The notes beneath the pieces were generated by a model that saw only the letters and a program-made list of their open reading frames with translations, was not told the DNA's origin and searched no databases. Position numbers and translations under genes: made by a program. From assembly GCF_003334255.1 (NCBI RefSeq), contig NZ_QOWU01000251.1: a DNA stretch of 381 nt, one strand, 5' to 3'. Source of the DNA: Escherichia coli (GTDB lineage: Bacteria; Pseudomonadota; Gammaproteobacteria; Enterobacterales; Enterobacteriaceae). Shown in pieces: positions 1 to 381 of the stretch (its first letter is position 1; every line of letters starts with the position of its first letter).

Positions 1-381
1 CGATTTTTTGAAGCAATATGGTGATTTTGAAAATGGTATTCCTGTTCACGATACCATTGCCAGAGTTGTATCCTGTATCAGTCCTGCAAAATTTCACGAG
101 TGCTTTATTAACTGGATGCGTGACTGCCATTCTTCAGATGATAAAGACGTCATTGCAATTGATGGAAAAACGCTCCGGCACTCTTATGACAAGAGTCGCC
201 GCAGGGGAGCGATTCATGTCATTAGTGCGTTCTCAACAATGCACAGTCTGGTCATCGGACAGATCAAGACGGATGAGAAATCTAATGAGATTACAGCTAT
301 CCCAGAACTTCTTAACATGCTGGATATTAAAGGAAAAATCATCACAACTGATGCGATGGGTTGCCAGAAAGATATTGCAGA
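1..381 (+). CDS. ISAs1-family DDE transposase (H-repeat-associated protein, YhhI/YdcC/YbfL-like), internal fragment truncated at both ends; codon phase begins at nt 2
   Basis: Frame starting at nt 2 is open for 126 codons through nt 379, while frame 1 has stops at 22-24, 28-30 and 109-111. The translation ([22 protein letters not shown]...[76 protein letters not shown]) matches my recollection of the E. coli H-repeat-associated / ISAs1-family transposase, roughly residues 55-180 of a ~378-aa protein. All three minus-strand frames contain stops (reverse-complement stops at + positions 46-48, 78-80 and 134-136). Paralog cannot be determined from the fragment, so no gene symbol is given. Not verified by database search. 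Confidence 0.9.
1..381 (+). mobile_element. Internal part of an ISAs1-family insertion sequence (H-repeat / ISEc1-like); element boundaries and terminal inverted repeats lie outside the window
   Basis: The only gene content is the ISAs1-family transposase ORF. From established knowledge, such elements are about 1.3 kb with a single transposase gene, so the element should extend a few hundred bp upstream and about 0.7 kb downstream. GC of about 41.7% is below the typical enterobacterial backbone, consistent with a mobile element. Confidence 0.8.

What the first reader, a model, noticed from the sequence alone, without database searches (positions are those of the whole stretch)
1..381. Window sits inside an ISAs1-family (H-repeat) transposase gene, marking an accessory or rearrangement-prone locus
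The sequence shows one uninterrupted transposase reading frame. From established knowledge, H-repeat/ISAs1 elements in E. coli, Shigella, Salmonella and Vibrio are often embedded in or next to Rhs elements (polymorphic toxin loci) and O-antigen/LPS gene clusters. Any interesting biology is therefore more likely in the flanking DNA than in this window, and nothing in the window itself is novel.
Basis: partly seen in the sequence, partly recalled or inferred. Interest (0 to 1): 0.35.

Follow-up and report, generated by a model that had tools for sequence, protein, structure and literature searches.

The report
Piece of ISEc1 (H-repeat) transposase gene
The window is an internal piece of the transposase gene of ISEc1, the long-known "H-repeat" insertion sequence found next to Rhs toxin genes in almost every E. 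coli genome, so it is ordinary and already explained.

Summary
Frame +2 is open across all 381 nt (126 codons); this happens in 0.2-0.8% of composition-matched random sequences. The translation scores 183.7 bits on NCBIfam's ISAs1 transposase model (cut-off 70). The DNA is 100% identical to yhhI of E. coli K-12, the H-repeat of RhsB, and to copies at other loci in other strains. It matches 5,311 of 5,426 complete E. coli genomes, median 5 places each.

Nine of ten sampled loci have rhs or vgrG genes within 12 kb. The tenth is an Rhs site that has lost them. Nine of ten full-length copies lack a target duplication, and several element ends abut truncated genes. Nothing here is novel.

The parts
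2..379 (+). Open reading frame: codons 56-181 of the 378-codon ISEc1 (H-repeat) transposase. The window corresponds to nt 309-689 of the 1,291-bp element.
   Evidence: No stop in frame +2. NF033564 183.7 bits. Position within the yhhI CDS and within the element.
2..118 (+). C-terminal part of the N-terminal DDE_Tnp_1-associated domain (protein residues 56-94). I infer it takes part in DNA or end recognition; this was not tested.
   Evidence: Pfam PF13808 on window residues 1-39 and on residues 8-94 of the full protein. Coordinates.
140..379 (+). First third of the RNase-H-like DDE catalytic domain (protein residues 102-181): strands beta1-beta4 and helix alpha1 of the predicted core.
161..163 (+). 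GAT codon for D109, the inferred first catalytic aspartate (motif AIDGKT, on predicted strand beta1).
   Evidence: Conserved in 18 of 19 aligned family members. Coordinates. Strand 105-112 in the model.
350..352 (+). GAT codon for D172, the inferred second catalytic aspartate (motif TTDAMG, just after predicted strand beta4). The third residue, E306, lies outside the window.
   Evidence: Invariant in 19 of 19 aligned family members. Coordinates. Strand 168-171 in the model.

Best explanation
The window is an internal segment of the single gene of ISEc1, the 'H-repeat' (H-rpt) insertion sequence of the ISAs1 family. It is identical to yhhI of E. coli K-12. The element is 1,291 bp long, has imperfect 13-bp terminal inverted repeats (CAGGGAAAGATCA and CAGGGCAAGATTA) and carries one unframeshifted 378-codon ORF.

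The window encodes residues 56-181. These comprise the end of the N-terminal DDE_Tnp_1-associated domain and the start of the RNase-H-like catalytic core, including D109 and D172 of the D-D-E triad. E306 lies downstream of the window.

Shown by comparison of genomes: the element inserts as a precise 1,291-bp unit and duplicates 10 bp of target, and its ends serve as exact endpoints of adjacent deletions.

Inferred: the transposase binds the terminal repeats and uses the Mg-binding D-D-E site to cleave the ends and join them to staggered cuts 10 bp apart. The fold is closest to Tn5 transposase, so a cut-and-paste route is the most likely chemistry. This has not been shown for any ISAs1 member as far as I could find, and the IS4/Tn5 YREK signature is missing.

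In E. coli most copies are old, vertically inherited residents at the downstream edge of Rhs/VgrG toxin loci. Their main present-day effect is probably to supply dispersed homology and deletion endpoints.
For: Family identity: NF033564 at 183.7 bits for the window and 412.4 bits for the full protein, cut-off 70. Pfam PF13808 plus PF01609. All 120 listed homologues that carry a name are called ISAs1-family transposase.

DNA identity: 100% to yhhI and ydcC-type genes; 5,311 of 5,426 genomes match. Within K-12 the paralogues are yhhI 100%, ydcC 99.2%, ybfL 97.4% and ybfD 95.0%.

Element limits: homology between independent copies runs exactly from locus position 11693 to 12983, i.e. 1,291 bp. The ends form an 11-of-13 inverted repeat.

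Mobility: ATCC 8739 has the element flanked by GCCCGACATG on both sides, and strain C has the same site uninterrupted with one GCCCGACATG. The O157 strain Xuzhou21 lacks exactly the 315 bp adjacent to the left end that strain Br_167 retains, with the same element and the same right flank.

Intactness: 8 of 10 full-length copies keep the 378-codon ORF.
Against: Transposition of H-rpt has not been observed experimentally according to the E. coli W genome paper (PMC3032704). A mobilome study of MG1655 saw no circular DNA signal for ISAs1 (bioRxiv 10.1101/2024.07.17.603846).

Only 1 of 10 full-length copies has a target duplication, so most copies give no direct sign of their own insertion.

The structure model is mediocre: mean pLDDT 58.5, with both termini below 50. 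The alignment behind the D-D-E assignment is shallow, with all members at least 66% identical, so invariance is weak evidence taken alone.

The window cannot show whether its own copy is full-length. Strain C carries a copy with a 100% window match that is truncated at element nt 917.
Confidence: 0.93

Rival explanations
1. The copy is an immobile relic. On this view the H-repeat is now only a fixed structural component of Rhs elements, its transposase is no longer used, and it matters only as repeated DNA for homologous recombination.
For: No experimental transposition has been reported (PMC3032704), and there is no eccDNA signal in MG1655. Nine of ten full-length copies have no target duplication. 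Both K-12 yhhI junctions are conserved in 1,812-1,840 of 5,426 genomes, which indicates long vertical inheritance. Very few plasmids (25 of 72,556) and essentially no phages carry it.
Against: There is a precise insertion with a 10-bp duplication and a matching empty site. There is a deletion ending exactly at the left repeat. Intact 378-codon ORFs remain in 8 of 10 copies. Differences from the closest paralogous copies are mostly synonymous. Copies at different chromosomal sites are 100% identical over the window. RhsC carries a nested insertion of one copy into another.
Confidence: 0.25
2. The window comes from a truncated or otherwise defective copy (a pseudogene), not from an intact transposase gene.
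For: Defective copies that contain all or part of the window exist. The strain C copy is cut at element nt 917 yet is 100% identical over the window. K-12 ybfL is frameshifted, ybfD lacks its N-terminus, and ybfQ holds only window nt 1-73.
Against: Most sampled 100%-identical copies are full-length with an intact ORF, and the window itself has no stop or frameshift.
Confidence: 0.15
3. The element belongs to the IS4 family proper (Tn5/IS50, IS10 type) rather than to a distinct ISAs1 family.
For: The closest solved fold is Tn5 transposase. The element also has a Pfam DDE_Tnp_1 domain, a single ORF without frameshift, 5'-CA ends and a 10-bp duplication. All of these are IS4-like according to PMC2266710.
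Against: The defining Y-(2)-R-(3)-E-(6)-K signature is absent; the positions read I299, H302, E306, L313. The NCBIfam hit is to the ISAs1 equivalog at 412 bits. The only other transposase models that appear, IS1380 and IS1634, score far below their cut-offs, and no IS4-family model is listed.
Confidence: 0.03
4. The open frame is a chance feature of non-coding DNA.
For: None beyond the fact that 381 nt is short.
Against: Chance expectation is 0.2-0.8%. The HMM E-value is 4.8e-54. More than 7,000 homologous proteins were found.
Confidence: 0.001

Closest known systems
ISEc1 / H-repeat (H-rpt) of E. coli Rhs elements: K-12 genes yhhI (RhsB), ydcC (RhsE), ybfL/ybfD/ybfQ (RhsC)
   Same: It is the same element. 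The window is 100% identical to yhhI and 95-99% identical to the other K-12 copies. RefSeq names the gene 'ISAs1-like element ISEc1 family transposase'.
   Different: Nothing differs in sequence. The only addition here is comparative evidence that the element has really transposed (a 10-bp duplication with an empty site). The literature I could read says transposition has not been observed (PMC3032704).
ISAs1 of Aeromonas salmonicida (family founder) and the ISAs1 family as defined by NCBIfam NF033564 and ISfinder
   Same: Shares the curated family HMM at far above cut-off, a single ORF, short terminal inverted repeats, a size of about 1.3 kb and an 8-10-bp class duplication. The family ranges are from my own knowledge of ISfinder and were not checked here.
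   Different: It is a different member with a different host range (Escherichia and close enterobacteria). I made no direct sequence comparison with ISAs1 itself.
H-repeat remnants and IS1358 in O-antigen gene clusters (Salmonella group D2; Vibrio cholerae O1/O139)
   Same: Same IS family. The Salmonella D2 junction remnant is compared directly with yhhI in PMC3715488. Full-length Salmonella homologues are about 86% identical in protein.
   Different: None of the ten E. coli loci sampled here was an O-antigen cluster; all were Rhs/VgrG sites. The Vibrio link comes from my own knowledge and was not tested.
Tn5 (IS50) transposase, IS4 family

Membership tests
ISAs1 family of insertion sequences | The transposase matches the curated ISAs1 family model above its trusted cut-off. 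| tested here: met
   NF033564 equivalog: 183.7 bits for the 126-aa window and 412.4 bits for the full protein, cut-off 70.
ISAs1 family of insertion sequences | A single transposase ORF without programmed frameshift, in an element of about 1.2-1.5 kb. | tested here: met
   One 378-codon ORF at element nt 145-1281 of 1,291 bp. It is intact in 8 of 10 full-length copies.
ISAs1 family of insertion sequences | Short terminal inverted repeats at the limits of inter-copy homology. | tested here: met
   CAGGGAAAGATCA and the reverse complement of TAATCTTGCCCTG match at 11 of 13 positions, exactly where homology between independent copies stops. This is slightly shorter than the 14-22 bp I recall for the family.
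ISAs1 family of insertion sequences | A target-site duplication of about 8-10 bp on insertion. | tested here: met
   An exact 10-bp GCCCGACATG duplication in ATCC 8739 with the empty site in strain C. It is absent from the other 9 full-length copies.
ISAs1 family of insertion sequences | A D-D-E catalytic triad on an RNase-H-like fold. | tested here: met
ISAs1 family of insertion sequences | Experimentally demonstrated transposition. | not testable with these tools
   Only comparative evidence is available. The literature reports no observed activity for H-rpt (PMC3032704).
ISEc1 (the specific element) | Near-identity to the ISfinder reference sequence of ISEc1. | not testable with these tools
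   ISfinder is not available here. As a proxy, RefSeq/PGAP names the 100%-identical genes 'ISAs1-like element ISEc1 family transposase'.
H-repeat component of Rhs elements | Located within or at the edge of an Rhs element. | tested here: met
   rhs or vgrG lies within 12 kb in 9 of 10 sampled loci. The tenth is the RhsE site with the rhs genes missing. The sample is the best hit per record and is not random. The window's own flanks are unknown.
IS4 family (Tn5/IS10 type) | A Y-(2)-R-(3)-E-(6)-K signature around the catalytic glutamate (PMC2266710). | tested here: not met
   The positions read I299, H302, E306, L313, so I do not file it under IS4 despite the fold similarity.
Anti-phage defence systems (PADLOC) | A match to any defence-system protein model. 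| tested here: not met
   0 families at E of 0.01 or better.

The most novel reading that the evidence does not exclude
ISEc1 may be more than a passive passenger of Rhs loci. Its transposase could be retained because it actively prunes and reshuffles the arrays of orphan toxin tips and immunity genes downstream of rhs. Several features would fit a working partnership between this IS and Rhs polymorphic-toxin loci: the near-universal presence in E. coli; the consistent position and co-orientation downstream of rhs; the intact ORFs; the deletions that end exactly at the left repeat; and the shared right junctions paired with variable left junctions.
Probability: 0.07. Interest if true: 0.55.

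Novelty: already known. Interest (0 to 1): 0.08.

Why it matters
It matters little as a discovery. The H-repeat/ISEc1 element has been known since the early 1990s, and genome pipelines annotate it automatically. Its practical value is as a signpost: in E. coli, a read or contig that contains this sequence very probably lies at the downstream edge of an Rhs/VgrG toxin locus, where gene content varies between strains and assemblies tend to break.

One minor point may be worth keeping. Comparison of genomes gives clean evidence of real transposition by this element (an exact 10-bp duplication with a matching empty site) and of a deletion that ends exactly at one of its ends. This qualifies the published remark that no transposition activity has been observed.

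Tried and rejected
1. A mechanical inverted-repeat scan of the yhhI region did not pick out the terminal repeats, which are too short and imperfect. Comparing independent copies found them instead.

2. Rfam scan of the region on both strands at E up to 1: no match. Promoter and terminator scan: counts at chance level, including a terminator-like hairpin on the minus strand at window nt 340-358. The two short minus-strand ORFs (27 and 43 aa) have no support and were dropped.

A 120-nt exact pattern found nothing among species representatives. A 36-nt conserved core found only five contigs, so this route says little about host range. The protein search was more informative.

4. PDB sequence search: only chance CheY hits at E about 1.

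5. PADLOC: nothing.

6. Phage collection: one 1,547-bp record that is essentially just the IS, so I do not read the element as phage-borne.

7. The T6SS-loss paper (PMC10711316) does not contain the whole word 'ISEc1'. The Rhs C-terminal-displacement paper never mentions the H-repeat.

8. IS4-family membership was considered because of the Tn5 fold match and rejected on the YREK test.

Full report
OBSERVATION. The window has one reading frame, +2 (nt 2-379), that is free of stop codons over all 126 codons. The other five frames have 1 to 15 stops. A fully open frame in any of the six frames arose in 38 of 20,000 mononucleotide shuffles and in 159 of 20,000 first-order Markov simulations, which is 0.2-0.8%.

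IDENTITY. The translation matches NCBIfam NF033564, 'ISAs1 family transposase', an equivalog model. The score is E 4.8e-54 and 183.7 bits against a curated cut-off of 70, covering profile positions 28-153 of 314. Pfam places the end of a DDE_Tnp_1-associated domain on window residues 1-39 and the start of a DDE_Tnp_1 domain on residues 47-124.

A megablast against 5,426 complete E. coli genomes finds the window in 5,311 of them, with a median of 5 places per genome and almost all on chromosomes. In 3,107 records the best place is at least 99% identical. The 100% hits are annotated 'ISAs1-like element ISEc1 family transposase', with gene names yhhI or ydcC.

In K-12 MG1655 the 100% copy is yhhI, directly downstream of rhsB, yhhH and a truncated 'lyase' pseudogene. 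The other K-12 copies are ydcC at 99.2% in RhsE, ybfL at 97.4% and ybfD at 95.0% in RhsC, and ybfQ, which holds only window nt 1-73. The yafF fragment lacks the window, and yncI is a distant ISAs1 relative at 68%. The window is therefore codons 56-181 of the 378-codon transposase.

The source strain and locus cannot be told from the window. Identical copies sit at the RhsB site, the RhsE site, the nrfB-adjacent site and a dkgB-adjacent site in different strains.

ANATOMY OF THE ELEMENT. A mechanical repeat scan did not reveal terminal repeats. Position-by-position comparison of independent copies showed that homology starts and stops sharply, giving an element of 1,291 bp. Its ends are CAGGGAAAGATCA and TAATCTTGCCCTG, an 11-of-13 inverted repeat with 5'-CA termini. 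The window is element nt 309-689.

The full protein has PF13808 on residues 8-94 and PF01609 on residues 102-343, and it scores 412.4 bits on NF033564.

In an alignment of 19 full-length family members (66-96% identical), D172 and E306 are invariant and D109 is present in 18 of 19. D109 is window nt 161-163 and D172 is window nt 350-352; E306 is outside the window.

An AlphaFold2 model built on that alignment is only moderately confident. Mean pLDDT is 58.5, the core at residues 100-310 mostly scores 70-89, and both termini are below 50. Its secondary-structure order is beta-beta-beta-alpha-beta-alpha-beta, then a beta-rich insertion and a long helix. D109 lies on beta1, D172 just after beta4 and E306 on the long helix.

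The signature that defines the IS4 family, Y-(2)-R-(3)-E-(6)-K (PMC2266710), is absent; the positions read I, H, E, L. So the protein works on a Tn5-like scaffold but is not an IS4-family member, which agrees with its classification in ISAs1.

EVIDENCE OF MOBILITY. In E. coli ATCC 8739 a full-length copy lies 49 bp upstream of a vgrG start codon and is flanked on both sides by GCCCGACATG. Strain C has the same site uninterrupted, with a single GCCCGACATG and identical flanks. This is a precise insertion with a 10-bp target duplication.

At the site next to nrfB, strains 600468, Br_167 and O157 Xuzhou21 share the same right junction but have three different left junctions. Xuzhou21 lacks exactly the 315 bp that lie next to the left inverted repeat in Br_167, while the element and the right flank are unchanged. 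That is the pattern expected of an IS-mediated adjacent deletion. An insertion in the other lineage cannot be strictly excluded.

Only 1 of 10 full-length copies has a duplication, and 8 of 10 keep an intact ORF. Element ends directly abut truncated genes in several loci: a yibA-like 'lyase' pseudogene at yhhI, an RHS fragment in strain 600468 and dkgB in strain VTB96777v. In K-12 RhsC one copy is inserted into another.

The literature I could read says H-rpt transposition has not been observed (PMC3032704). A mobilome study of MG1655 found no circular DNA signal for ISAs1 (bioRxiv 10.1101/2024.07.17.603846). So activity is probably rare. Both K-12 yhhI junctions are conserved in 1,812-1,840 of 5,426 genomes, which marks that copy as an old, vertically inherited insertion.

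CONTEXT. Ten loci holding the window were examined. Nine have rhs or vgrG genes within 12 kb. In eight of those nine the element is downstream of the rhs genes and on the same strand; in ATCC 8739 it is upstream of vgrG. The tenth, strain R7, has the element alone between ansP and yddH. That is the RhsE site with yncG, yncH, vgrG, rhs and pptA missing.

None of the ten loci is an O-antigen cluster. The O-antigen association is documented for Salmonella group D2, with yhhI used as the reference H-repeat (PMC3715488). The sample is small and consists of the best hit per record, so the proportions are only indicative.

RANGE. The element is rare on plasmids (25 of 72,556 records, several of them megabase-sized records). 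It is effectively absent from phages (one 1,547-bp record). Close copies occur in Pseudocitrobacter vendiensis (96% over 1,291 bp) and in an Escherichia cryptic-clade species. Protein homologues at 75-88% identity are named from Salmonella, Citrobacter, Serratia, Dickeya and Raoultella.

MECHANISM. Shown: the family identity, the element limits, the 10-bp duplication on insertion, and the deletion endpoint at the left repeat. Inferred from conservation and fold: D109, D172 and E306 form the metal-binding active site. Inferred by analogy only: end binding by the N-terminal domain and a Tn5-like cut-and-paste chemistry. The missing YREK motif leaves the hairpin step open.

VERDICT. The two corrections are that the element is near-universal in E. 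coli rather than accessory in itself, and that the O-antigen link did not appear in this sample. Novelty: already known. Interest: low.

Noticed in passing
L002 11683-12993 (E. coli ATCC 8739) compared with L004 3444-3543 (E. coli C): A precise 1,291-bp ISEc1 insertion with an exact 10-bp target duplication (GCCCGACATG) lies 49 bp upstream of a vgrG start codon, and the other strain has the matching empty site. This is clean comparative evidence of transposition for an element that the literature describes as never seen to move.
   Followed up: yes
L014 8378-8692 compared with L015 8690/8691; right flanks L003 12984+, L014 9984+, L015 9982+: Three strains share the same ISEc1 right junction next to nrfB but have three different left junctions. 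O157 Xuzhou21 lacks exactly the 315 bp adjacent to the left inverted repeat that strain Br_167 keeps. This is the signature of a one-sided, IS-adjacent deletion that removes Rhs tip remnants.
   Followed up: yes
L006 14303-16926 (K-12 RhsC: ybfQ, ybfL, ybfD): A nested or tandem arrangement of H-repeats. Element nt 1-381 comes first, then a full 1,290-bp copy with a 1-nt deletion (ybfL pseudogene), then element nt 25-913, then nt 1225-1291. So one copy inserted into another, with further internal deletions.
   Followed up: partly
L016 8693-9983 (E. coli R7): This is the genome's only place matching the window. It sits alone between ansP and yddH, so the whole RhsE region (yncG, yncH, vgrG, rhs, pptA) is gone and the IS is the only thing left at the scar.
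   Followed up: partly
L013 9984-10154 (E. coli VTB96777v): dkgB is truncated (N-terminus missing) starting 1 nt after the right end of ISEc1, with a VgrG/PAAR-Rhs island on the other side. The IS marks the boundary of an island whose insertion or an adjacent deletion removed part of a core gene.
   Followed up: no
L005 15587-16640 (K-12 yncI) and L004 10607-11733: A second, distant ISAs1-family element (about 68% nucleotide identity to ISEc1, a pseudogene in both strains) lies immediately upstream of the ydcC-type ISEc1 copy in the RhsE locus. Two different ISAs1 members are stacked at the same Rhs edge.
   Followed up: no
L002 22129-23451: A group II intron reverse transcriptase/maturase (ltrA) sits between the orphan Rhs tips and a second ISEc1 copy in the ATCC 8739 Rhs locus.
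   Followed up: no
L001 11346-11696; one search hits H78-H81: The 'lyase' pseudogene cut off by the left end of the yhhI copy is homologous to yibA, the HEAT-repeat gene downstream of RhsA. So the IS truncates a yibA-like gene in RhsB.
   Followed up: no
L008, L009, L012 (genome-contig hits): ISEc1 sequence at 94-99% identity appears on short contigs of MAGs labelled 'Proteobacteria bacterium' and 'Bacillota bacterium', and on a 225-bp contig of Terasakiella sp. These are most likely E. coli contamination or mis-binning rather than real host range. Neither of my two exact patterns (120 nt and 36 nt) hit a contig labelled E. coli among the species-representative genomes.
   Followed up: no
P0008, P0093 (Shigella sonnei 'receptor'), P0090, P0098, P0072: Some database proteins fuse the ISEc1 transposase to other domains: VgrG-type PF05954, RHS PF05593 plus IS1 PF03811, or PF20148. 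Others carry the odd name 'receptor'. They look like read-through or mis-called ORFs across IS junctions at Rhs/VgrG loci.
   Followed up: no
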